Below, in pieces: positions 42,507 through 64,000 of a DNA stretch of 64,000 nucleotides. Position 1 is the stretch's first letter. Each line of letters starts with the position of its first letter. The notes below the pieces were generated by a model. The model ran no database searches, was not told the DNA's origin, and saw nothing but the letters and a program-made list of their open reading frames with translations. The position numbers and the translations under genes are program-made. Source of the stretch: an uncultured Gammaproteobacteria bacterium (GTDB lineage: Bacteria > Patescibacteriota > Patescibacteriia > XYB2-FULL-38-15). Where the stretch lies: positions 50,938-114,937 of the forward strand of contig OZ246416.1 in NCBI GenBank assembly GCA_965231095.1, read 5' to 3'.

Positions 42507-42717
42507 TTAAACCTCTCCGCCCACGGCGGAAAATGAGGTGAAATTGGCTAATATTTATTAAGTTATTATAGCATAGATTATTTTGTAAAACAAGGGTTTA
42601 ATGTTTGACTTTTTATAATAAAAAAAGATAGGATAAAAGCGCTTCTCATGGCGAGAAGACCCGGGCCACGGGCAGTGGCAAATTACCTTCGGGCTTACAG
42701 TCCGGAAGGAGACAGAA

Positions 42718-43632
42718 ATGGCGAAGTATGAAAAGCTGAACCTGGGTCAGATTGAAGCGCTCGTGAACATCTTGGGTGGCATGGAGGTCGTGAAGAAGAT
42801 TCTTCGCGGGACGAAGAAGCCTCTTCCCCCGGACAAAGGCTTTCGGTCCCTTTTTGACAACTACGGCCGCCGCGTTGCGCCTCCTACGATGAGCGACAAG
42901 GGAGGAGCCGATCCGGAGGTGTGTTTGGCTCAGCCGGCGATGCATCTTCCACCGGGACCGGGAACAAGGTTCAAGGGTTTGTGCGAACGCCTTGGCTGGC
43001 AGAACCAGATGACTCCGGAAGAATTTCGCGCGCGGGTGGACAAGGCGGTAGAGAAGATCAACTTCGGCAGCATCAGAGAAGAGGTGAGGGGAATTTTGGG
43101 TGGTGTGTATCTGCCCTTTGGTCTTCCGCAGGTGACCTCCAGCGATTGCGGGGAGATCCTTGACGAACTCGGCTTGATCAATGCGGTTGAGCGTGTTTTC
43201 AAGGAAAGATTTCCCGAGGGGCAGTTTTTCGGACAAGAAAAATCCCTGAAGGGAGGCTTCCGCTTGATCGAAGGAAGTCGCCACGAGCGATTTTTGGAGG
43301 CCTTGACAAAGGAGCCGGTCGTTGCCATCTACTTCCCATTGGCGCTCCAAGGGTATTTGCCCGATAAGGCCGTCGAGCAGATGGAGAGCCTGCCGGAAGA
43401 GTTTCTGCTTTCCGGTGTGGTTGATACAGCGGCGGCGATCATGATGTATCCGGAAGTTCTACTTCGGGACACCTGCGTGCCGCAGCTCGGATGTTCGGCA
43501 GTGAAGCGCTGGGTGACCGGAGTTTCCTCATTCGATGTCAGTGACGGCAGCGACAAGATCACGCTCGCCTTCGGGGGGTGCCAGATCTTTGGGCGCGGCA
43601 AGTTTACTTCCGGCCTCACCGTCATCGCGTAG
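42718..43632 (+). CDS. GC-rich island C: hypothetical 304-aa protein, no recognisable domain
   Basis: ~60% GC; SD GGAAGGAGA 6 nt before ATG; TTGACT promoter-like element at 42605; downstream terminator 43695-43728. Confidence 0.6.
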   Translation: MAKYEKLNLGQIEALVNILGGMEVVKKILRGTKKPLPPDKGFRSLFDNYGRRVAPPTMSDKGGADPEVCLAQPAMHLPPGPGTRFKGLCERLGWQNQMTPEEFRARVDKAVEKINFGSIREEVRGILGGVYLPFGLPQVTSSDCGEILDELGLINAVERVFKERFPEGQFFGQEKSLKGGFRLIEGSRHERFLEALTKEPVVAIYFPLALQGYLPDKAVEQMESLPEEFLLSGVVDTAAAIMMYPEVLLRDTCVPQLGCSAVKRWVTGVSSFDVSDGSDKITLAFGGCQIFGRGKFTSGLTVIA

Positions 43633-49692: not shown

Positions 49693-49706
49693 GGTGTGAC
49701 GGTCGG

Positions 49707-50297
49707 TTACGGGGAAGTGATGTCCTTCGTCCCGTCGTAGGGATCGCCGGAGTCGGCGGAATCGTCGGCGGGCGGCGCAGCGGGCGAGACGACCTCGACT
49801 TCCTCCTCGATGTCCTCGGCCACCACGACCGTGGTTTCCGGCGCGTCTTCGAGGATCTCGACCATCTTCATCGCCTGGCGCACACAGGCCGACAGCTCGG
49901 CGGTGGAGAAGGCGTAGGAGAGTTGTTCGAAGGTAACCCGGCGTCCTGGTTCCGTGTCCTTCGACATCCAGTGTTCGATCAGCTTGGCGAGATCATCGTC
50001 GGAGACGCGTTTCAGGATCTCCTCGATCGCGGATTTTGCGCCGTTCTCGATACCGCCGAGCATCGCCTGGCGCATGATGGGCACGGTGTCTTTCTTGTCA
50101 CCGGGCCAGATCCCGAGTAGATCGCCAACGATCTTCTCGAAGGTGTGCACTTGGGCAATGTGAGCCAGGCCGCTGGCCCGGCTCAAATTGATGTGGTGCA
50201 AGATGATCCAGATGTTCAGGACGCCGAGATCCACGAAGTGCTGGAGCATCGCCGCTAGCGTCAACTTCTTGTCTCTTTCCTTCTTGGATTCCGCCAT
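49707..50297 (-). CDS. GC-rich island D gene 2: hypothetical ~197-aa protein (helical, acidic C-terminal tail)
   Basis: MAESKKERDKKLTLAAMLQHFVDLGVLNIWIILHH...; ~62% GC; minus-strand promoter cTTGACAa-N17-TAAGGT at 50342-50370; 5' UTR palindrome CTCCGATTAATCGGAG. Confidence 0.55.
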   Translation of the reverse strand: MAESKKERDKKLTLAAMLQHFVDLGVLNIWIILHHINLSRASGLAHIAQVHTFEKIVGDLLGIWPGDKKDTVPIMRQAMLGGIENGAKSAIEEILKRVSDDDLAKLIEHWMSKDTEPGRRVTFEQLSYAFSTAELSACVRQAMKMVEILEDAPETTVVVAEDIEEEVEVVSPAAPPADDSADSGDPYDGTKDITSP

Positions 50298-50382
50298 TGT
50301 CTTCCACTCGCTCCGATTAATCGGAGTCCTTTCTATCCGCACCTTAGTTTAAAAAATAAAATTTGTCAAGATAAAAAAAGAG

Positions 50383-50445
50383 CCCGTGGATTGCTTGGAG
50401 TTGGGGCACGGGACGTGTCTCCAAAGCAATCCACGGGCTGGGTGA
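50383..50445 (-). terminator. long-stem intrinsic terminator after island D zinc-ribbon gene
   Basis: agcccgtggattgcttggag...ctccaaagcaatccacgggct ~20-bp stem followed on minus strand by ctcttttttt. Confidence 0.6.
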
Positions 50446-50608
50446 TGCCCAGCGGGTGCCGTGAGGCTGGCCGGCTGGGCTCAGTCGCGTGACCCGCCCG
50501 GGGGGTAGGAGGGCACCGGGGAGCCGACGCGAGCTTGGGGAACGGAGAGTTCTCGAGCGAACTCGCAAACTCTCACGTTATTGGTGGGTAAGTTACAGGC
50601 GGGTCTTG

Positions 50609-50881
50609 TCAGGGTCGGGGGCAGTTCCGGACGACATGCATTCGCTTGCGCCTGGCGCGGGCGACGCCGTCCGTGTACTTCTTGCCCTTGCGTTCGGCGA
50701 AAGTGTGCATCGAGCAGTAGTGCCCGGTATTCCCGCTACGGAGAATCGTTCCACAGTCGGGTTCCTGGCATCGCCGCGGCTTGCCATCGTCGGTGCTCCG
50801 ACCGCTGTCGTGCACGTCGCCGAGCGAATTGGCGCCGACCGTGCCGGTACCCTGATCCATTCCGAGCGCGCTCCAGTCCAT
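50609..50881 (-). CDS. GC-rich island D gene 1: 90-aa Cys/His-cluster (zinc-ribbon-like) protein, possibly nucleic-acid binding
   Basis: ...RRCQEPDCGTILRSGNTGHYCSMHTF...; SD GGAGGAGGAAGG before ATG; 5' UTR hairpin ccttgcgt..acgcaagg. Confidence 0.55.
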   Translation of the reverse strand: MDWSALGMDQGTGTVGANSLGDVHDSGRSTDDGKPRRCQEPDCGTILRSGNTGHYCSMHTFAERKGKKYTDGVARARRKRMHVVRNCPRP

Positions 50882-51004
50882 CCTTCCTCCTCCTCAACCT
50901 TCCCTATTATCAACTCGTCCTGTCCACCAGGCCGAGGCTTAGGGCCACCTTCCTTGCGTTTTGACGCGTGCCAATAACGCAAGGCCACCCTGTTTGTTGA
51001 TTTT

Positions 51005-57847: not shown

Positions 57848-58813
57848 ATGACTCATAGCGAGTTGCAAAAATTTGTCGGATTTTTGATGAAGCGCGGTTA
57901 TATTGTGTGGGCGCCGGAAAAACGGCCGGAGGAAGTGGTCTACGCGAAAGTGGAAGACGCTACAAAAGTGAAATTGATTTCCGAGCCGCCGCTGCATTCG
58001 TTCAAGAGATTTTTAGTTCCGCCCGAGGAAACGCTTTTTGAATATAAAAAAGATAAAATGAGTGAAGCGCGGGAGAAGGGAGGGCAGGTAATTTTTGGTA
58101 TTAATCCGGTGGATTTAAAAGCGGTGGTAATGCTGAATCAAATTTTTGAGCGCGATCCGTGGTACCAAGAAAGAATGCGGCGGACGTTAATTATCGGCCA
58201 GAGTTTGATTCCGGAAGATGCCGAGCAAAATCTTTTCCAAATTAAATACGAAGAAGATATTTTGGAACATTTGCAATTTGATATTTTTTTGGAGGTGCAG
58301 AAAAATAAATATTTTGTTTTTACCGGTTCGGAAGAAGGGCAGAAAATTTTGGAAAAATTCGGGTACAAAGATTATGAGCATGTTGCCTACGCCGGCCCGA
58401 TTAAAGAAAGTGGGTTGGATCCCATGATGGTGAAATATCGCGACGCACTCCGGAAAAATTATAAAAAAGAAATTTGGGAGGAAGATGTTGGCGCGCGTTG
58501 CATTGAATGCGGGAAATGTACTTTAATTTGTCCGACTTGTTTTTGTTTTGATATGAAAGATCAGCCGGATCTCGTGGGCGACGGGGGAACGAGAAAACGG
58601 ACGTGGGGCGCCTGTTTTTATAATGATTTCTCAGAAGTCGCTGGCGGACATAAATTTTTGAAGACGACGGCGGAGAGAATTCATTTTTGGTATTATCATA
58701 AATTTGTTCGGATTCCCGACCAGATTCAGATTATGGGTTGCGTCGGCTGCGGGCGATGCGCGAAAGTTTGCCCCGTGAATATTAATATTTTTAAAGTGCT
58801 GGCGGCGTTATGA
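57848..58813 (+). CDS. sulfhydrogenase (group 3b [NiFe]-hydrogenase) beta subunit-like 4Fe-4S protein
   Basis: CIECGKCTLICPTCFC and CVGCGRCAKVCPVNI ferredoxin-type cluster motifs; operon context with gamma, delta, alpha subunits. Confidence 0.7.
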   Translation: MTHSELQKFVGFLMKRGYIVWAPEKRPEEVVYAKVEDATKVKLISEPPLHSFKRFLVPPEETLFEYKKDKMSEAREKGGQVIFGINPVDLKAVVMLNQIFERDPWYQERMRRTLIIGQSLIPEDAEQNLFQIKYEEDILEHLQFDIFLEVQKNKYFVFTGSEEGQKILEKFGYKDYEHVAYAGPIKESGLDPMMVKYRDALRKNYKKEIWEEDVGARCIECGKCTLICPTCFCFDMKDQPDLVGDGGTRKRTWGACFYNDFSEVAGGHKFLKTTAERIHFWYYHKFVRIPDQIQIMGCVGCGRCAKVCPVNINIFKVLAAL

Positions 58814-59622
58814 AAAATCCATATCAAACAGAGTCCGTAAAAATTTTAAAGATTGAGGACGAAGGTTCGCGTTCTCGGCTTTTTACGCTCGCCGCGCCGC
58901 GCGGATTTAAGGTTAAAAGTGGACAGTTCGTGGAAATTTCTTTGCCGGGATTTGGCGAGGCGCCGATTTCACTTTGTTCTGATCCGTTGGAAAAAAATAA
59001 ATTTGAATTGTGCGTCCGAAAAGCGGGAATGGTGACGGGCGCTCTGCACAAAATGAAAGTTGGCGACAAAGTCGGAGTGCGCGGCCCGTACGGCCGGCCG
59101 TTTCCGGTGGAACTTGGAAAAAAAAGAAATTTACTTTTGGTGGCCGGCGGATTGGGTTTGGAACCATTACGTCCAGCGATTTGGGAAATTATGAAAAACC
59201 GCGAGCAGTTTCAAAAAGTCCAAATTTTTTACGGCGCTTGCGACGAGAATGATTTGCTTTTTGCGAAAAATTACGACGAGTGGAAGAAAAAAATTGATTT
59301 ACATATTACCCTTGATAAACCAAGGGGCGGCAAAACTCCGGTGGCTTGCGGCACGGGCGTTGTCACCACACTTTTTGATCACGTAAAACTTTATAAAAAA
59401 CCGGTGGCGTTTTTGTGCGGTCCGCCCGTGATGTATAGATTTGTCATTAAAAAATTAAAAGAATTAAATTTTGAAGATAGCGATATATATTTATCGCTCG
59501 AGCGGCGGATGCATTGCGGCATCGGCGTTTGTAATCACTGCGCCGTCGGGAGTTTTTTTGTCTGCCAGGACGGTCCGGTTTTTTCTTGGGCGGAATTGAA
59601 AGATATTCGCGGCGCGATATAA
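58810..59622 (+). CDS. sulfhydrogenase gamma subunit-like FAD/NAD(P)-binding oxidoreductase with C-terminal 2Fe-2S motif
   Basis: Ferredoxin-NADP reductase-like fold, C-terminal CGIGVCNHCAV. Confidence 0.7.
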   Translation: MKNPYQTESVKILKIEDEGSRSRLFTLAAPRGFKVKSGQFVEISLPGFGEAPISLCSDPLEKNKFELCVRKAGMVTGALHKMKVGDKVGVRGPYGRPFPVELGKKRNLLLVAGGLGLEPLRPAIWEIMKNREQFQKVQIFYGACDENDLLFAKNYDEWKKKIDLHITLDKPRGGKTPVACGTGVVTTLFDHVKLYKKPVAFLCGPPVMYRFVIKKLKELNFEDSDIYLSLERRMHCGIGVCNHCAVGSFFVCQDGPVFSWAELKDIRGAI

Positions 59623-59659
59623 ACCTGACAATTAACAGTTGACAATTAACAATTAACAG

Positions 59660-60565
59660 TTGACTATGAAAAATAAAGGATATTTTTTGGTTTTAGGAAC
59701 GGCGATAATTTCCGGCGTTTCTATTTTTGTAAATCAGTTTGGCGTTAAAGTTATCAATTCGGATATTTTTACCGGTTTGAAAAATATAGTGGTGGCCGTA
59801 ATTTTGTTGTGTCTTATTTTTTGGTTTAAAGAATGGAAGTTATTGGCAAAATTAAAAATCAAGGAATGGCTGACTTTGGTTTTAATCGGTTTGGTCGGCG
59901 GCAGCATTCCGTTTTTACTTTTCTTCAAGGGCCTGGCCGCGACAAGCGGAGCGAGCACGTCTTTTATTCATAAAACTTTATTTATTTATGTAATAATTTT
60001 GGCGGCGCTGTTTTTGAAAGAAAAAATAAGTAAAAATTTAGCGATCGGCGCGGCCTTGCTTTTGCTCGGCAATGTGGCGCTCTTGAAAATTTTTAATGGA
60101 TTTCAATTCGGTTATGGCGAGTTATTGGTTTTGTTTGCTACGCTGTTTTGGGCGGCGGAACAAATTATTTCTAAGCGGGCGCTTCAAGATATTTCTCCGA
60201 AAATTGTCGCTTGGGGCAGAATGTTTTTCGGATTTTTATTTATTTTTATTTTTTGGGCGGCGACGGGTCAGTTGAAATTGCTGGGCGGGGTGGGAGCGGC
60301 GGAATTAAGTTGGGTTTGGATTACAGCCGTTTTTCTTTTAGGCTATGTTTTAACTTGGTATTCTGGCTTGAAATATATAAAAGTTTCAACCGCGGCGTGT
60401 ATTTTATCTTTAGGCGCGCCAATTACCAGCTTGCTTGAAATGGCGCAAAAAGGAATTTTTGATTGGCAGATTTTTCTCGGGAGTTTGTTGATGTTTGCGG
60501 GAGTAATTTTAGCGGTAGATTTATTTTCACGGATTAAAATGGCGGCAACAAACGCGATCCGTTAA
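59660..60565 (+). CDS. EamA/DMT superfamily transporter, flanked by ~35-bp inverted repeats
   Basis: 10 TM helices in two EamA-like halves; flanking caattaacagttgacaattaac (59629-59663) and its reverse complement (60561-60597). Confidence 0.65.
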   Translation: MTMKNKGYFLVLGTAIISGVSIFVNQFGVKVINSDIFTGLKNIVVAVILLCLIFWFKEWKLLAKLKIKEWLTLVLIGLVGGSIPFLLFFKGLAATSGASTSFIHKTLFIYVIILAALFLKEKISKNLAIGAALLLLGNVALLKIFNGFQFGYGELLVLFATLFWAAEQIISKRALQDISPKIVAWGRMFFGFLFIFIFWAATGQLKLLGGVGAAELSWVWITAVFLLGYVLTWYSGLKYIKVSTAACILSLGAPITSLLEMAQKGIFDWQIFLGSLLMFAGVILAVDLFSRIKMAATNAIR

Positions 60566-60599
60566 CTGTCAACTGTTAATTGTTAACTGTTTATTTACC

Positions 60600-60833
60600 A
60601 TGTGTTTTGGTGTCCCTTGTAAAATTGAAAAAGTAAATAAAAATAAAGCCACCATAAAAAATGGCGGCAAAGTTTTTGATATAGACACCTCGCTCTTGCC
60701 AAAAATAAAAAAAAATGATTGGATATTGGTGCAGGGCAATATTGGAATGAAGCAAATATCGGAGGATGAAGCAAAAAGTTGCCTTGCCGTTTTGGACGAA
60801 TTCCAAAGTAAAGAGGGGAAGGGAGGACTGTGA
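60600..60833 (+). CDS. hypC: [NiFe]-hydrogenase maturation chaperone HypC/HupF family
   Basis: N-terminal MCFGVPCKI (MCxxxP signature), ~77 aa. Confidence 0.75.
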   Translation: MCFGVPCKIEKVNKNKATIKNGGKVFDIDTSLLPKIKKNDWILVQGNIGMKQISEDEAKSCLAVLDEFQSKEGKGGL

Positions 60834-61567
60834 TGGAGAGAACATACGCAAGAGCGGCGCGCTACGCGCTCTATCCGAACATGCTCGGGCTTTGCGGGCC
60901 GCGCGGAAGGGGCAAGGAAAAACTCTACGAGTATTTGACTCTCAAGACCAAGGTGGACGACCAAGAGGCGAGGGAATTACTCGAGCAATTCACCGCGGCC
61001 ACGGCCTACATGAAACTGATTGCCGCGGCAAACGAGATTCCGGACTGGCTGGATCCGAGGGTGGTTGACGCCTACTGGATTGGAAACGACCTTTTGAACC
61101 TTGTCCGCGCCGAGGATCTGAAGGAATTGATCCATGGTCTCGTTCTAGCAGGAAAGCTTGCCGAGTCCGCGGCGGAAGAAGCGATTGCCCGTGTCCACCG
61201 CGATCATCGTCCGCACCATAGCTTCCATGTTTTTGTGATCGGCGGACTTTCCGGCCAAGTGGAGCGCGGGTCAATCGGCTGGGAACTTTGCCGTATCGGC
61301 TGGGGGACGGTCGCCCGCGTCAAGCATGACGGCAACCTCACAGTTTTGGCAGAGTCTTTGTTGCAAAAGGGCGGCAAGATTTTTCCTGAACTTGAGGGAG
61401 TGGAAAGAGAGCGGCTCATCAGGCGCGACCGGGAACTTTTCCCACGCGTTTCCTCTGGTGACCTCGTTGCTTTCCACTGGGGCAGAGTGGTTGAAATTAT
61501 TGACCACGACGCAGCACGGCGGCTGGACTATTGGACCGAACGGACGCTCCGGCACTGCAGACTGTAG
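60833..61567 (+). CDS. GC-rich island F: hypothetical 244-aa protein inserted in the hydrogenase cluster directly after hypC
   Basis: ~60% GC; SD AAGGGAGG; start overlaps hypC stop (gtgATGg); terminator 61593-61625 AGACTAGCttttaggGGCTAGTCttttttt. Confidence 0.55.
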   Translation: MERTYARAARYALYPNMLGLCGPRGRGKEKLYEYLTLKTKVDDQEARELLEQFTAATAYMKLIAAANEIPDWLDPRVVDAYWIGNDLLNLVRAEDLKELIHGLVLAGKLAESAAEEAIARVHRDHRPHHSFHVFVIGGLSGQVERGSIGWELCRIGWGTVARVKHDGNLTVLAESLLQKGGKIFPELEGVERERLIRRDRELFPRVSSGDLVAFHWGRVVEIIDHDAARRLDYWTERTLRHCRL

Positions 61568-61592
61568 AAAAAATCCATCGCAAACGTTTTCG

Positions 61593-61625
61593 GAGACTAG
61601 CTTTTAGGGGCTAGTCTTTTTTTGT
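61593..61625 (+). terminator. intrinsic terminator of island F
   Basis: GAGACTAGCttttagggGCTAGTCTttttttgtg. Confidence 0.65.
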
Positions 61626-61676
61626 GAATAAAAAATTCCGCCGAAGCGGATTTTTATTTTTGATATTTAATTTTTT

Positions 61677-62309
61677 TTAAAGTTTTTTTATAAGATTAAT
61701 TACTTCATCGTCGGTCGTCTGGCCAAATTCTTCGTAAAAAGATCCGACGGCGCCGAAAAAGGCCGGAGCTTCAAGATAAATTATTTCGTGAACTTCTTTT
61801 TTTATCAATTCCGCCGCTTCCGGCGAAGTGATAGGAGTGGCGACAATAATTTTTGCCGCGCCCATTTTTTCCACAGATTTTATTGCCGCGCGCATCGTAA
61901 GCCCGGTTGCCAGGCCGTCGTCAACAATAATGGCGGTTTTATTTTTCAGATCAAACGGCGAACGCGAACCTCGGTATAATTTTAACCGTCGCCCTGCTTC
62001 GACTTTTTCTTTTTCAATTTCATTTTGTAAATAAGATTCAGTTATTCCGTAAGCGCCGACTGTCATTTCGTCAAAAACTCCTTCGCCAGTCTCGGTAATG
62101 GCGCCGATCGCAAATTCGGGATTTCCCGGCGCGCCGATTTTTCGGGGGACAACAATATCCATCGGCAAGTTCAATTTTTTTGCCACTTCATACCCGACAA
62201 CAACTCCGCCTCTTGGCAAGGCCATGATTACGGTATTTGCCGCGTTTTTAAATTTTTCCAGCGCTTCAGCCAATTTTTGGCCTGCTTCCACGCGATTTTT
62301 GAATAACAT
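61677..62309 (-). CDS. type I phosphoribosyltransferase domain protein
   Basis: PRPP-binding motif TAIIVDDGLATGLTMRAA; start set at MLFKNRVEAG. Confidence 0.7.
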   Translation of the reverse strand: MLFKNRVEAGQKLAEALEKFKNAANTVIMALPRGGVVVGYEVAKKLNLPMDIVVPRKIGAPGNPEFAIGAITETGEGVFDEMTVGAYGITESYLQNEIEKEKVEAGRRLKLYRGSRSPFDLKNKTAIIVDDGLATGLTMRAAIKSVEKMGAAKIIVATPITSPEAAELIKKEVHEIIYLEAPAFFGAVGSFYEEFGQTTDDEVINLIKKL

Positions 62310-62357
62310 ATTAATAAATAATAGCAGTTTTAAACATTCCGTAAAAGTGCTATAATA

Positions 62358-63125
62358 ATGAAACATATGCCGAAGCCAACATTAGCCATTGCCAGCATGA
62401 CTTGTTGTGAAGGTTGTCAGGTGGAAATTTTGAATTTAGGGAAAAGGTTATTGGACATTTTCCAGGTTTTTGATTTAGGAAATTTTTCCTGGGCAGAAGA
62501 AAAGCGCGAACGGCCAAGTTATGACATCGCTGTGGTTGAGGGCACGCCGCTTACGGAAGAGGATATAAAATATTTAAAAGAATTAAGAAAAAAATCAAAA
62601 ATTTTGGTGGCGATTGGGAGTTGCGCCCATTTGGGCGGAGTTCAGGAAATAAAAAATTACGCCGAAAAAAATAAAGATGAAAAAGTAAAATACGTTTATC
62701 CAAAATATCAGCGGATACAAAATCCGACGGTCGTGCCGGTTTGGAAAGTGGTGAAAGTTGATTATACCGTGCCGTGCTGTCCGATTGATAAAGATGAATT
62801 TTTTCGGGTGATTTCAGATATTGCTTTTGGGCGCGCGCCGCGGATTCCTCTTCGACCGGTGTGTTTTGAGTGCCAGACACAAGGATATGAGTGTCTTTTG
62901 CAAAAAGGGGAGCCGTGTCTTGGGCCAATTACGATCGGCGGTTGCAAAGCGATTTGTTTACGCAGTAAAAGATTTTGCTACGGTTGCCGCGGACCGCTCG
63001 CTGGAGCCGGATCGCAAATTAAAAAACATCTGCGGAATTTAGAAAAATTAGTTGGGAAAAAATATCTCGCCGAAATTATGGAAACCTACGGCGCGGAAGA
63101 CGATTTTTTACGAATTGAAAAATAA
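62358..63125 (+). CDS. [NiFe]-hydrogenase small subunit (sulfhydrogenase delta-like)
   Basis: TCCEGCQV proximal cluster motif, GSCAHLGG, CPIDKDEF, C-terminal Cys cluster. Confidence 0.75.
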   Translation: MKHMPKPTLAIASMTCCEGCQVEILNLGKRLLDIFQVFDLGNFSWAEEKRERPSYDIAVVEGTPLTEEDIKYLKELRKKSKILVAIGSCAHLGGVQEIKNYAEKNKDEKVKYVYPKYQRIQNPTVVPVWKVVKVDYTVPCCPIDKDEFFRVISDIAFGRAPRIPLRPVCFECQTQGYECLLQKGEPCLGPITIGGCKAICLRSKRFCYGCRGPLAGAGSQIKKHLRNLEKLVGKKYLAEIMETYGAEDDFLRIEK

Positions 63126-63126
63126 T

Positions 63127-64000
63127 ATGAAAATCAAAATAAGCCATCTTGCCAAAATTGAAGGGCACGCCAGTTTTTTTGCTGATATGCTCGCCGGTGA
63201 TATTCGTAACGCCAAATTAAAAATTACGATTGGTGCGCGGTTGATTGAGTCAATAATTTTAAATCGGAATTATATTGAAACGCCGATTGTGACGTCGCGA
63301 ATTTGCGGCATATGTTCCGTGGCGCACAATATCACGAGTATCAAGGCGATTGAAAACGCCCTTGGCGTGAAAATTAATCCGCAAATTGAACGGCTCCGAA
63401 AAGTTTTGGTCCTCGCCGAGCCGATTCAAAGTCATGCGGCTCATCTTTTCTTTTTGTCCTTGTCTGATTTTTTTAAATATGAAAGCGACGTTGATTTGAT
63501 AAAAAAATATCCTGACCTCGCCAAAAAAATAATTTTAATTCGTGATTTTGGGAATAAAATAAAAGATGTGGTCGGCGGGCGGGATATGCACATGATTGTG
63601 ACGGAAATTGGGGGATTTAGAAGAGTGCTCGATGATAAAATTATTCAAGGATTAATTAATGAAACTGAAGGCGTGCTTGAAGCAGCGATTGGTGCGGCGA
63701 AATTTTTTCGGGCGCTTAATTATCCAAAATATGAAAGAAAAGTTGAATTTGCCGGATTGGTTGCGTCGCGGGAGTACGCGTTTTATGATGGCATGGTTGG
63801 ATCAAATATGGGATCAGCTCGCCCCGTGAAGAAATTTTATAAAGAACTTGCGGAAAAACAAACGACCAATGATCCGACCAAGCGCGCGAGCCATCTTGGA
63901 AAAAGTTTTATGCCCGGGGCGATTGCGCGGCTGAATTTGAGCCATAAATTTTTAAATCCCGAGGCAAAAAAGTTTTTGTCATTTTTTGAAAAACCAAACG
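63127..64000 (+). CDS. [NiFe]-hydrogenase large subunit (sulfhydrogenase alpha-like), 3' truncated by window end
   Basis: N-terminal Ni-binding RICGICSVAH (RxCGxCxxxH) motif. Confidence 0.8.
   Translation, partial: MKIKISHLAKIEGHASFFADMLAGDIRNAKLKITIGARLIESIILNRNYIETPIVTSRICGICSVAHNITSIKAIENALGVKINPQIERLRKVLVLAEPIQSHAAHLFFLSLSDFFKYESDVDLIKKYPDLAKKIILIRDFGNKIKDVVGGRDMHMIVTEIGGFRRVLDDKIIQGLINETEGVLEAAIGAAKFFRALNYPKYERKVEFAGLVASREYAFYDGMVGSNMGSARPVKKFYKELAEKQTTNDPTKRASHLGKSFMPGAIARLNLSHKFLNPEAKKFLSFFEKPN

What the first reader, a model, noticed from the sequence alone, without database searches (positions are those of the whole stretch)
57848..64000. Group 3b-type [NiFe] sulfhydrogenase operon (beta-gamma-delta-alpha) in a reduced AT-rich genome, interrupted by four inserted genes
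Subunit order and motifs match sulfhydrogenase-type (group 3b) hydrogenases: the 4Fe-4S beta subunit, the FAD/2Fe-2S gamma subunit, TCCEGCQV in the small subunit, and RICGICSVAH in the large subunit. The operon is split by an EamA transporter, hypC, GC-rich island F and an antisense PRTase. Hydrogen metabolism in a symbiont-like genome and the operon's apparent permissiveness to insertions are both notable.
Basis: partly seen in the sequence, partly recalled or inferred. Interest (0 to 1): 0.5.

Follow-up and report, generated by a model that had tools for sequence, protein, structure and literature searches.

The report
Split hydrogenase locus with unstudied helper genes
This is a real NAD(P)-linked nickel-iron hydrogenase gene cluster in a tiny-genome (Patescibacteria) bacterium. 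Three of the four genes that seem to interrupt it are a conserved helper cassette that travels with such hydrogenases across bacteria and archaea, and it includes an unstudied HypC-like protein (DUF6390) paired with a membrane transporter.

Summary
Window 57848-64000 encodes beta, gamma, EamA, HypC, a GC-rich 244-aa protein, an antisense PRTase, delta and alpha, with the quoted motifs. An identical public contig completes alpha (421 aa). It ends at DPCMTCATH, and its best matches are the solved group 3b enzymes.

EamA, HypC and "island F" (Pfam DUF6390) are not insertions. In 81 DUF6390 loci from Patescibacteria, DPANN, Thermoplasmata, Chloroflexota and Actinobacteria, EamA lies directly upstream in 60. 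Among 42 loci with full flanks, 39 have a [NiFe] large subunit within 10 kb. Other Patescibacteria show beta-gamma-HypC-EamA-DUF6390-delta-alpha-HypA.

DUF6390 combines a helical domain with no known fold and a HypC-like OB domain. The OB domain keeps the Cys and His that bind iron in HypC. The family also occurs fused to EamA and to five kinds of HTH domain, and next to three kinds of ABC importer. I infer a transporter-coupled metal (Ni or Fe) chaperone or sensor for hydrogenase maturation; this is untested.

The GC-rich island is an allelic replacement, because a close relative carries a native-GC allele only 51% identical. Only the PRTase junction is truly variable. No hypB/D/E/F lies in the 73 kb seen.

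The parts
57848..58813 (+). Hydrogenase beta subunit (321-aa ORF; gene callers start at 57887, giving 308 aa). It is a 4Fe-4S dicluster protein of the ShyB/HydB/AsrA type.
   Evidence: Pfam Fer4_22 at 5.8e-32. NCBIfam ShyB 7e-39, AsrA 4e-37, HydB 4e-35. 90% aa identity to L003 and L090.
58810..59622 (+). Hydrogenase gamma subunit (270 aa) with FAD, NAD(P) and [2Fe-2S] domains. Its start overlaps the beta stop.
   Evidence: Pfam FAD_binding_6, NAD_binding_1 and DHODB_Fe-S_bind. NCBIfam PRK08345 5e-74 and ShyC 4e-65.
59660..60565 (+). EamA/DMT-family transporter (301-aa ORF; gene callers start at 59687). It belongs to a specific subfamily that lies directly upstream of DUF6390 in most loci.
   Evidence: Pfam EamA 2e-34, two repeats. 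phmmer E 1e-30 to 1e-85 to EamA genes adjacent to DUF6390 in 60 of 81 loci, including archaea. Conserved S18 G19 K41 N42 G80 G81 P84 F85 H104 K105 E121 W164 E167 K172 R187. dN/dS about 0.1.
60600..60833 (+). HypC (77 aa), the Fe(CN)2CO chaperone. Cys2 is present, and Gln stands at the position of E. coli His51.
   Evidence: Pfam HupF_HypC 2.8e-14. TIGR00074 scores 48.6 bits against a cut-off of 48. Motif tabulation.
60833..61567 (+). Its ATG overlaps the hypC stop by 1 nt. It has a novel helical N-domain (about residues 7-154) and a HypC-like OB domain with a C-terminal helix (about 155-244).
61592..61650 (.). Two terminator-like hairpins with T-runs between the convergent DUF6390 and PRTase genes. 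The second (61637-61650) reads as a terminator on both strands.
   Evidence: Pattern scan and sequence. This is consensus-level evidence only.
61677..62273 (-). Antisense phosphoribosyltransferase-family gene (198 aa as called; the ORF extends to 62366). It is the only lineage-specific gene in the locus.
   Evidence: Pfam Pribosyltran 7e-21. Present at this position only in L001, L002, L003 and L090. dN/dS 0.13-0.21.
62329..62356 (+). Promoter-like site (TTTAAA-16-TG-TATAAT) just before delta. It implies a separate delta-alpha-hypA transcript.
   Evidence: Scan (10 of 12 matches). The total number of promoter-like sites is not above the shuffled controls, so this is weak evidence.
62358..63125 (+). 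Hydrogenase delta (small) subunit, 255 aa, containing TCCEGCQV.
   Evidence: Pfam Oxidored_q6 1.5e-24. NCBIfam ShyD 2e-52. JGI names cluster members 'sulfhydrogenase subunit delta'.
63127..64000 (+). Hydrogenase alpha (large) subunit. The first 291 of 421 codons lie in the window, and the gene ends at window-equivalent position 64392. It carries RICGICSVAH and ends at DPCMTCATH with no C-terminal extension.
   Evidence: PDB best hits are the 3b enzymes 5yxy (6e-53) and 9e1j (7e-52), aligned end to end. NCBIfam ShyA 2e-47 on the partial sequence.

Best explanation
The region is a functional group-3b (NAD(P)-coupled, 'sulfhydrogenase'-type) [NiFe]-hydrogenase locus of a Patescibacteria bacterium.

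Organisation. It forms two units, beta-gamma-EamA-HypC-DUF6390 and delta-alpha-HypA, separated by a convergent/divergent PRTase gene. Alpha-delta is the H2-activating dimer. Beta-gamma is the FeS/flavin module that couples it to NAD(P)(H), most likely to dispose of fermentative reductant as H2. This role is inferred from homology.

The 'interrupting' genes. EamA, HypC and DUF6390 are a conserved accessory cassette, not insertions. HypC is the Fe(CN)2CO chaperone.

DUF6390. It is a two-domain protein: a novel helical domain plus a HypC-like OB domain. Invariant Cys22, His130, Cys154 and His216 are spread across both domains. Cys154 and His216 sit at the positions of the iron ligands Cys2 and His51 of HypC.

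Inferred mechanism (not shown). DUF6390 binds a metal or metal complex (Ni or Fe) brought in by the adjacent transporter. It then passes the metal, through its HypC-like docking domain, to HypC/HypA and the large-subunit precursor. In HTH-fused relatives the same domain reports metal availability to transcription.

Other points. The large subunit ends at the Ni-binding His, so it needs no maturation protease. The high GC content of DUF6390 reflects allelic (xenologous) replacement of a resident gene.
For: Shown:
- Domains, motifs and 3b affinity.
- Purifying selection on all genes.
- Cassette conservation. EamA lies directly upstream of DUF6390 in 60 of 81 loci. In the 42 loci with full flanks, 39 have a [NiFe] large subunit within 10 kb and 34 have EamA. 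HypC is adjacent in at least 33 loci.
- The same gamma|delta position of the cassette in L036, L081, L008, L037 and L011. HypC>EamA>DUF6390>beta>gamma>delta>alpha>HycI in L085.
- The roles of C2 and H51 in iron coordination are taken from PMC12134894.
- Invariant C22, H130, C154 and H216, also kept in the fusion proteins.
- Fusions: EamA-DUF6390 and PadR-, XRE-, GntR-, ArsR- and MarR-DUF6390.
- Where EamA is absent, DUF6390 directly precedes an ABC importer: SBP_bac_5 type in Chloroflexia, Peripla_BP_2/FecCD type in Nocardioides, and SBP_bac_1/11 type after a GntR fusion.
- Only 6 of 33 neighbouring HypC proteins keep the His51-equivalent, whereas DUF6390 always does.
- GC island: relative L090 has flanks 83-93% identical, but its DUF6390 is 51% identical with native GC3 of 0.41.
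Against: - No experiment or publication exists on DUF6390.
- I could not inspect model coordinates, so spatial clustering of the four invariant residues is not verified.
- Which metal is involved is unresolved. Fbp- and FecCD-type partners suggest Fe. Nik- and Niu-type partners and a Cys/His site suggest Ni.
- The EamA subfamily has no Cys/His motif. Its conserved residues are Lys, Arg, Glu and His, which fits an organic or chelated substrate better than a bare cation.
- L008 and L037 carry a CbiM/PDGLE Ni/Co uptake system as well as EamA, which argues against EamA being simply the Ni importer.
- Cys154 is internal, not N-terminal as in HypC.
- The 81 loci are the best 80 of at least 563, chosen by similarity, and many sit on short MAG contigs.
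- The transcription-unit boundaries rest on consensus scans that are not enriched over shuffles.
Confidence: 0.72

Rival explanations
1. The beta-gamma-delta-alpha operon has been passively interrupted by four unrelated genes, because this reduced genome tolerates insertions into operons.
For: The PRTase is confined to the closest relatives. L002 has three further unrelated genes (a 202-aa ORF with no Pfam match, an SPP-type peptidase and a DJ-1/PfpI-like protein) at the same DUF6390|delta junction. DUF6390 has foreign base composition.
Against: EamA, HypC and DUF6390 co-occur with hydrogenases across phyla and domains, often with overlapping start and stop codons. A close relative has a native-GC DUF6390 in the same slot. 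All these genes are under purifying selection.
Confidence: 0.07
2. DUF6390 is mainly a ligand sensor or regulator rather than a metal donor. It would sense a metal, a metabolite or the maturation state. The stand-alone form would gate the partner transporter or sequester HypC, and the HTH-fused forms would act as one-component transcription factors.
For: Independent fusions to five HTH families (PadR, XRE, GntR, ArsR, MarR) are the signature of an effector-binding domain. The GntR fusion sits at the head of an ABC importer operon. A fusion to EamA exists.
Against: Most family members (about 95% of the best 150) have no DNA-binding domain. Retention of the HypC Cys/His pair and tight coupling to hypC point to the cofactor pathway itself. 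The two roles are not mutually exclusive.
Confidence: 0.25
3. DUF6390, with EamA supplying a precursor, is an alternative scaffold or enzyme for building the Fe(CN)2CO unit. It would replace HypD/E/F, or supply the still-unknown anaerobic CO source, in minimal genomes.
For: HypC-type Cys and His are kept, and extra invariant Cys and His come from a second domain, much as HypD C41 complements HypC C2. No hypD/E/F was seen in 73 kb around this locus or within 10 kb of DUF6390 in the other loci examined. [quoted passage not shown]
Against: Whole genomes could not be searched, so absence of hypDEF is unproven. The family also occurs in Chloroflexota and Actinobacteria, which have large genomes and, I expect, full hyp sets. 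The protein has no FeS-cluster motif or nucleotide-binding fold, and no similarity to HypD, HypE, HypF or HypX.
Confidence: 0.08
4. The EamA-DUF6390 pair is a general metal or metabolite homeostasis module with no specific role in hydrogenase biogenesis. It lies near hydrogenases only because Ni/Fe transport genes tend to cluster there.
For: Three full-flank loci show no hydrogenase within 10 kb (L059, L073, L074). L074 shows only DUF6390 plus an ABC importer.
Against: 39 of 42 full-flank loci have a large subunit nearby. L059 has a NifU-Rieske hydrogenase-accessory-type gene at its edge. The HypC-like fold and the direct hypC coupling are specific to hydrogenase maturation.
Confidence: 0.1
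5. Beta-gamma are an AsrAB-like sulfite or polysulfide reductase module that works independently of delta-alpha, so the locus holds two enzymes rather than one heterotetramer.
For: AsrA and AsrB score almost as well as ShyB and ShyC. The two gene pairs appear to be separate transcripts. Many Patescibacteria have alpha-delta next to the cassette without beta-gamma nearby.
Against: No AsrC-like catalytic subunit is present. Beta-gamma-delta-alpha are contiguous in DPANN, Thermoplasmata and L085 loci that carry the same cassette. The beta-gamma-(cassette)-delta-alpha order recurs in Patescibacteria.
Confidence: 0.05

Closest known systems
Group 3b [NiFe] hydrogenases: Pyrococcus furiosus SHI/SHII (HydBGDA, ShyBCDA) and Thermococcus kodakarensis Hyh
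   Same: The same four subunit types are present. The large subunit aligns end to end with 5yxy and 9e1j (E 6e-53 and 7e-52), and both Ni-binding motifs are present.
   Different: Scores are far below the NCBIfam equivalog cut-offs (134-220 bits against 460-700), so these are not orthologues of the Thermococcales enzymes. The genes are split into beta-gamma and delta-alpha units by accessory genes. Alpha lacks the short C-terminal extension that T. kodakarensis HyhL has (428 aa against an end at residue 424). S0/polysulfide reduction is not testable here.
CPR/Patescibacteria 3b hydrogenases (Wrighton et al. 2012 and later metagenomic surveys; my knowledge)
   Same: The same enzyme type in the same kind of organism. 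Public pipelines already call relatives 'sulfhydrogenase'.
   Different: I found no description of the HypC-EamA-DUF6390 cassette or of the split architecture.
HypC/HybG/HupF chaperone family (PF01455)
   Same: The C-terminal half of DUF6390 has the HypC OB fold plus a C-terminal helix. Cys and His sit at the positions of HypC C2 and H51.
   Different: The Cys is internal (residue 154), not at a free N-terminus. A novel helical domain of about 150 residues precedes it. The Pfam HypC model does not match. A separate canonical HypC is encoded next to it.
HupF/HoxL: HypC paralogues with an added segment that specialise maturation for particular conditions
   Same: A HypC-type module with an extra part, encoded inside a hydrogenase cluster alongside a normal HypC (PMC12134894).
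   Different: HupF has a C-terminal extension and keeps the N-terminal Cys. DUF6390 has an N-terminal domain and is linked to a transporter.
Metallochaperone or sensor domains that occur alone, fused to transporters, or fused to regulators, such as the CopZ/HMA domain and the NikR metal-binding domain (my knowledge), together with the Ni importers found in hydrogenase clusters (NikABCDE, NiuBDE, CbiMNQO)
   Same: The same pattern of domain deployment: stand-alone, an EamA fusion and HTH fusions. The same adjacency to importers beside hydrogenase genes.
   Different: There is no sequence or fold relationship. Metal binding by DUF6390 is unproven. An EamA/DMT partner has no precedent that I know of as a Ni or Fe importer.

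Membership tests
Group 3b [NiFe] hydrogenase | Large subunit with the N-terminal RxCGxCxxxH (L1) Ni-binding motif | tested here: met
   SRICGICSVAHN at residues 57-68.
Group 3b [NiFe] hydrogenase | Large subunit with the C-terminal DPCxxCxxH (L2) motif | tested here: met
   The protein ends ...RAYDPCMTCATH*, read from contig L001, which is identical to the window over 11,643 nt.
Group 3b [NiFe] hydrogenase | Closer to characterised 3b large subunits than to groups 3a, 3c, 3d, 1, 2 or 4 | tested here: met
   Against PDB: 3b enzymes 5yxy, 9e1j and 9nez at 6e-53 to 7e-52. Others: 7t2r 5e-49, Mvh 6e-45, Frh 1e-37, SH 3e-35, group 1 at 1e-20 or weaker. NCBIfam ShyA scores better than HydA, VhuA and FrhA. 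The margin over 7t2r is modest.
Group 3b [NiFe] hydrogenase | Four subunits: alpha, delta, beta (2x[4Fe-4S]) and gamma (FAD, NAD(P), [2Fe-2S]) | tested here: met
Group 3b [NiFe] hydrogenase | Formal HydDB or phylogenetic classification | not testable with these tools
   No HydDB classifier or reference tree was available.
Thermococcales sulfhydrogenase I/II equivalogs (NCBIfam NF0408xx) | Score above the curated equivalog cut-off | tested here: not met
   134, 220, 178 and 162 bits (the last on the partial alpha) against cut-offs of 690, 600, 460 and 700. The enzyme is the same kind but not an orthologue.
Sulfhydrogenase (functional sense) | S0 or polysulfide reduction to H2S | not testable with these tools
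   This needs an enzyme assay.
HypC/HupF/HybG (window 60600-60833) | Pfam/TIGRFAM match and N-terminal Met-Cys | tested here: met
   PF01455 scores 53.4 bits against a cut-off of 28.5. TIGR00074 scores 48.6 against 48. The protein starts MCFGVP.
HypC/HupF/HybG (window 60600-60833) | Conserved His at the E. coli H51 position | tested here: not met
   Gln in GDWILVQG. Only 6 of 33 HypC proteins next to DUF6390 have His at this position.
HypC family (DUF6390 C-terminal domain) | OB-fold barrel plus C-terminal helix, with Cys and His at the Fe-ligand positions | tested here: met
HypC family (DUF6390 C-terminal domain) | The Cys is residue 2, at a free N-terminus, and the protein matches PF01455 | tested here: not met
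   The Cys is residue 154. There is no PF01455 hit at E up to 0.01. I therefore call the domain HypC-like and do not file the protein as a HypC family member.
DUF6390 (PF19927) | Full-length match above the gathering score | tested here: met
   139.4 bits against a cut-off of 25, covering model positions 9-236 of 244.
EamA/DMT transporters | Two EamA repeats | tested here: met
   PF00892 at 2e-34, two matched stretches.
HypA (gene just beyond the window) | N-terminal MHE-type Ni site plus a Zn site made of two CxxC pairs | tested here: not met
   PF01155 is on record and the protein starts MHD, but the 85-aa sequence has no Cys. It is a truncated HypA-like protein.

The most novel reading that the evidence does not exclude
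EamA and DUF6390 define a previously unrecognised, widespread branch of [NiFe]-hydrogenase biogenesis that is coupled to a transporter. The family has at least 1,700 clusters at 50% identity, across Bacteria and Archaea. In this reading, a HypC-like protein with a Cys2His2 site receives an imported metal or metal complex and feeds it to the large subunit. In ultra-small genomes (CPR, DPANN) it may stand in for missing maturation factors such as HypB/SlyD or part of the HypD function.
Probability: 0.3. Interest if true: 0.8.

Novelty: new variant of a known kind. Interest (0 to 1): 0.58.

Why it matters
The hydrogenase itself is ordinary for Patescibacteria. The accessory cassette is what matters.

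[NiFe]-cofactor assembly is thought to need six Hyp proteins. Open questions remain about where the iron comes from and where the CO ligand comes from in anaerobes (PMC12134894). An uncharacterised protein that keeps the two iron-ligand residues of HypC, is co-translated with a strongly conserved transporter, and tracks hydrogenase genes from CPR bacteria to DPANN archaea, Chloroflexota and Actinobacteria is a concrete candidate for a missing step or a regulatory layer. It can be tested.

It would also help explain how organisms with genomes under 1 Mb mature a complex metalloenzyme. Culturable carriers such as Nitrolancea hollandica (L034) and Nocardioides make genetics feasible.

The finding also corrects an annotation habit: genes lying between hydrogenase subunit genes should not be dismissed as insertions.

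Tried and rejected
- Literature. No paper in the library contains 'DUF6390' or 'PF19927'. 'EamA'+'hypC' and 'HypC-like' gave nothing relevant. CPR/Patescibacteria hydrogenase-maturation searches gave no information on hyp gene content.
- RNA. Rfam at gathering thresholds on the window and four loci found only tRNAs, so no metal riboswitch identifies the transporter's substrate.
Two look-ups failed because gene starts differed, and one look-up duplicated earlier information.
- EamA as a bare Ni2+ importer was considered and downgraded. It has no Cys/His motif, and it co-occurs with CbiM/PDGLE in L008 and L037.
- The ~125-aa ORF that follows DUF6390 in about 29 loci (FGN..D, D and HD motifs) looks like a minimal maturation protease. 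However, Pfam finds nothing and hhalign to HycI gives only 8% probability, so this is inconclusive.
- Promoter and terminator scans are consensus matches only. Promoter counts are not above the shuffled controls.
- A donor for the GC-rich allele could not be named. The window clade is about equally distant (33-39% identity) from all other DUF6390 lineages.

Full report
**1. Observation.**
- beta, 57848-58813: Fer4_22.
- gamma, 58810-59622: FAD, NAD and 2Fe-2S domains.
- An EamA transporter, 59660-60565.
- HypC, 60600-60833.
- A GC-rich ORF, 60830/60833-61567.
- An antisense PRTase, 61677-62273 (the ORF runs to 62366).
- delta, 62358-63125, containing TCCEGCQV.
- alpha, from 63127, containing RICGICSVAH.

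GC rises to 54-58% across 60750-61500, against about 40-43% on either side.

**2. Source and extension.** Exact-protein look-ups found the locus on public contigs. One is a Logan contig of 84.8 kb, and another is an NCBI/ENA contig of 886,192 nt. Relatives are labelled 'Patescibacteria group bacterium'. Locus L001 is identical to the window over the 11,643 nt they share, and it extends 9 kb beyond the window. The complete alpha is 421 aa and ends ...RAYDPCMTCATH*. The next gene is an 85-aa HypA-like protein (PF01155 on record) that starts MHD and has no cysteine. After it come PGK and other housekeeping genes.

**3. Hydrogenase class.** All four subunits score best against the Thermococcales sulfhydrogenase II/I models: ShyB 7e-39, ShyC 4e-65, ShyD 2e-52 and ShyA 2e-47 on the partial alpha. 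These scores are far below the equivalog cut-offs. The enzyme is therefore of the same kind but is not an orthologue. Full-length alpha aligns end to end with the solved 3b enzymes, T. kodakarensis HyhL 5yxy (6e-53) and P. furiosus SHI (7e-52). Other group 3 enzymes score lower, at 5e-49 to 3e-35, and group 1 enzymes score 1e-20 or weaker. Unlike HyhL (428 aa, aligned through residue 424), this alpha stops at the motif His. It therefore has no C-terminal peptide to cleave, and no HycI-type gene lies in the locus. HydDB itself could not be run.

**4. The 'inserted' genes are mostly a conserved cassette.**
- The GC-rich ORF is a full-length member of Pfam DUF6390 (1.8e-40).
- A profile of its homologues retrieved at least 563 loci from species-representative genomes. 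I kept the best 80 with 10-kb flanks. By record title they come from many Patescibacteria lineages, DPANN archaea, Thermoplasmata, Chloroflexota and Acidimicrobiales.
- I searched all ORFs of these loci with the window's proteins. An EamA homologue (E 1e-30 to 1e-85) lies immediately upstream of DUF6390 in 60 of 81 loci. A [NiFe] large subunit is found in 59, a small subunit in 51, and beta/gamma in 22-23.
- Among the 42 loci with at least 8 kb on both sides, 39 have a large subunit and 34 have EamA. Clustering found HypC in 33 loci.
- Gene maps show recurrent arrangements. One is HypC>EamA>DUF6390>(~125-aa ORF)> followed by alpha<delta<. Another is beta>gamma>HypC>EamA>DUF6390>delta>alpha>HypA, in L036, L081, L008, L037 and L011. 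A third, in archaea, is beta gamma delta alpha (~125-aa ORF) EamA DUF6390.
- A high-GC contig (L085) has HypC>EamA>DUF6390>beta>gamma>delta>alpha>HycI, with Pfam annotation on record.

The gamma|delta position of the cassette is therefore a conserved architecture, not an accident of this genome. The window differs only in gene order, EamA-HypC-DUF6390 instead of HypC-EamA-DUF6390.

**5. Anatomy of DUF6390.**
- AlphaFold2 with the family alignment gives a confident model (pLDDT 93.5, pTM 0.91). It has an all-helical N-domain (about residues 7-154), a beta-barrel (157-224) and a C-terminal helix.
- Profile-profile comparison with the HypC proteins of the same loci gives 92% probability (E 6e-7), aligning DUF6390 157-239 with HypC 7-71. 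Extending that alignment without gaps puts the invariant Cys154 on HypC Cys2.
- A profile search of PDB sequences again puts HypC on top. It aligns GDlvsfHWg with GDWVIVHTG, placing His216 on the conserved HypC histidine.
- According to PMC12134894, C2 and H51 of HypC, together with C41 of HypD, coordinate the iron of the Fe(CN)2CO precursor.
- Family-invariant residues are P16, C22, G23, the AYWIGN block, H129/H130/S131/F132/H133, C154, R155 and H216/W217. Across the more divergent fusion proteins, C22, H130, C154 and H216 remain. This suggests an inter-domain Cys2His2 site, but I could not inspect coordinates to confirm proximity.
- Only 6 of 33 HypC proteins encoded next to DUF6390 keep the H51-equivalent His. 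Thirteen have Gln there, and the window's own HypC also has Gln.

**6. Links to transport and to DNA binding.**
- An exhaustive profile search finds 1,702 50%-identity clusters at E up to 1e-3, of which 1,176 are at 1e-10 or better.
- Most are stand-alone proteins of about 240 aa. Among the best 150 there is an EamA-DUF6390 fusion (P0129, 563 aa, the L029 Kerfeldbacteria gene). There are also fusions to PadR, XRE (two), GntR, ArsR-type and MarR DNA-binding domains.
- Where EamA is missing, DUF6390 directly precedes an ABC importer. In Chloroflexia this is SBP_bac_5 plus two permeases, after HypA and HypC. In a Nocardioides it is Peripla_BP_2/FecCD/ABC, beside HypC, HypA, HycI and a long-form hydrogenase. 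After a GntR-DUF6390 fusion it is an SBP_bac_1/11 protein, a double permease and a TOBE-type ATPase, near another long-form hydrogenase.
- HypC>DUF6390-MarR occurs with overlapping genes.
- The EamA subfamily is more conserved than DUF6390 across the two domains of life. Its invariant residues are Ser/Gly, Lys, Asn, His, Glu and Arg, not a Cys/His cluster.
- L008 and L037 carry CbiM and a PDGLE protein in the same cluster as EamA.

**7. The GC-rich island.**
- In L001, L002 and L003 the DUF6390 gene has GC 57-59% and GC3 0.66-0.70, while the neighbouring genes have GC3 0.36-0.52. In L036 and L081 it matches its neighbours.
- In L090 (GCA_040961035.1) the whole locus, including the antisense PRTase, is syntenic. 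Its flanking proteins are 83-93% identical to the window's (HypC 77%), apart from a DUF2238 membrane protein upstream of beta at 53%. But its DUF6390 is only 51% identical and has native composition (GC 0.43, GC3 0.41).
- dS between the two DUF6390 alleles is saturated (2.7) against about 0.8 for the flanks.
- The slot is therefore ancestral and the allele has been exchanged. The direction of exchange and the donor are unresolved.
- Among the GC-rich alleles, dS (about 1.2) is like that of the flanks, and dN/dS is 0.15-0.19. The gene is functional but evolves 4-5 times faster at the protein level than alpha and delta.

**8. The PRTase and the junction.** The PRTase (Pribosyltran, 7e-21) is antisense. 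It is found at this position only in L001, L002, L003 and L090, and it is under purifying selection. L002 has three more unrelated genes at the same junction. Two hairpin/T-run terminator-like sites follow DUF6390 (61592-61619 and 61637-61650). A TTTAAA-16-TG-TATAAT site precedes delta. This suggests two transcripts, but these are consensus matches only.

**9. Hyp census.** Pfam annotation of essentially all sizeable ORFs in window 1-57000 found only housekeeping genes. Within the 73 kb visible, the only maturation genes are hypC and the truncated hypA. No HypB, HypD, HypE or HypF family appears in any annotated DUF6390 context or as a recurrent cluster in the 81 loci. Whole genomes could not be searched, so absence from the genome is not established.

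**10. Mechanism.**
- Shown: a complete, selectively maintained 3b hydrogenase gene set; a conserved HypC-EamA-DUF6390 cassette; a HypC-like domain with the ligand residues retained; and a repeated physical and genetic link to transporters and to HTH domains.
- Inferred: DUF6390 binds a metal or metal complex delivered by its partner transporter. It then hands this to the maturation pathway through its HypC-like docking domain. The HTH fusions would use the same binding event for regulation. This deployment pattern (stand-alone, fused to a transporter, fused to a regulator) resembles that of known metallochaperone and sensor domains (my knowledge).
- Ni or Fe: the evidence does not decide. FecCD- and Fbp-type partners and the HypC ligands favour Fe. 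Nik- and Niu-type partners and a Cys/His site favour Ni. The charged residues of EamA suggest a chelate or an organic substrate.
- Rivals: a pure sensor role, a role in diatomic-ligand or scaffold chemistry, and a general homeostasis role. They are listed separately with their tests.

**11. Novelty.** The hydrogenase is a new member of a known kind in a lineage where it is already known. The cassette, and especially DUF6390 as a HypC-domain protein tied to a DMT transporter, is not described in any paper I could search. I therefore rate the whole finding as a new variant of a known system. Its interest is moderate to high because it offers a testable candidate for unexplained steps in [NiFe] maturation.

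Noticed in passing
L001:10770-12035 (window 63127 to window-equivalent 64392): The large subunit ends exactly at the His of DPCMTCATH, with no C-terminal extension. No HycI-type protease gene lies in this locus. About 29 other DUF6390 loci instead carry a ~125-aa ORF (FGN..D, D and HD motifs) directly after DUF6390. It may be a minimal maturation protease, but Pfam finds nothing and hhalign to HycI gives only 8% probability.
   Followed up: partly
L001:12037-12294 (just beyond the window end): An 85-aa HypA-like protein starts MHD but has no cysteine, so it lacks the zinc site. The same short form follows alpha in 8 loci, all Patescibacteria-type 3b loci (L001-L003, L008, L011, L036, L037, L081).
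   Followed up: partly
window 60833-61567; L002, L003, L090: DUF6390 evolves much faster than its operon neighbours: 51-71% aa identity between relatives whose alpha and delta are 82-93% identical. It exists as GC-rich and native-GC alleles in equally close relatives. This looks like repeated allele exchange or diversifying pressure on this one gene.
   Followed up: partly
window 58810-59622 (gamma) compared with L002 and L003: Gamma is 86% identical between L002 and L003 but only 70% identical between L001 and L003. Most other genes in the locus are 83-94% identical between L001 and L003 (HypC 72%, DUF6390 71%). The locus therefore appears to be a recombination mosaic.
   Followed up: no
window 60600-60833 and HypC genes of 33 loci: Most HypC proteins encoded next to DUF6390 lack the conserved His (E. 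coli H51): 13 have Gln, 4 have Asn and only 6 have His. The window's HypC also has Gln there. DUF6390 always keeps the aligned His.
   Followed up: partly
L029:9026-10717 (Ca. Kerfeldbacteria, JACRFN010000042); P0129: EamA and DUF6390 are encoded as one 563-aa ORF joined by a linker of about 30 residues. This would place DUF6390 at the cytoplasmic C-terminus of the transporter. A sequencing frameshift has not been excluded.
   Followed up: partly
window 42646-43632 and 49700-51000: Two further GC-rich stretches (50-52% and 59% GC, against about 42% background). They hold ORFs of 304, 196/211 and 90 aa with no Pfam match.
   Followed up: no
L002:10932-13807: Between DUF6390 and delta, this relative carries three genes besides the PRTase: a 202-aa ORF without a Pfam match, an SPP/presenilin-type peptidase (PF06550), and a 167-aa ORF that looks DJ-1/PfpI-like (not scanned against Pfam).
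   Followed up: partly
L008, L011, L016, L037, L038, L041, L052, L069 (record titles): Several TPA co-assembly MAGs are titled 'uncultured Gammaproteobacteria' or 'uncultured Pseudomonadales', yet they carry loci of the Patescibacteria type (small genes, the same cassette, short HypA). The taxonomic labels may be unreliable.
   Followed up: no
L084 (Nocardioides, JAFMQY010000005) and L019/L021/L056/L059 (Thermomicrobiales/Chloroflexia): In these larger genomes DUF6390 sits in clusters with long-form hydrogenases and with NifU, NifU-Rieske, DUF5947 and DUF6084 genes. It is often followed by a conserved 396-aa protein with no Pfam match (cluster c15).
   Followed up: no
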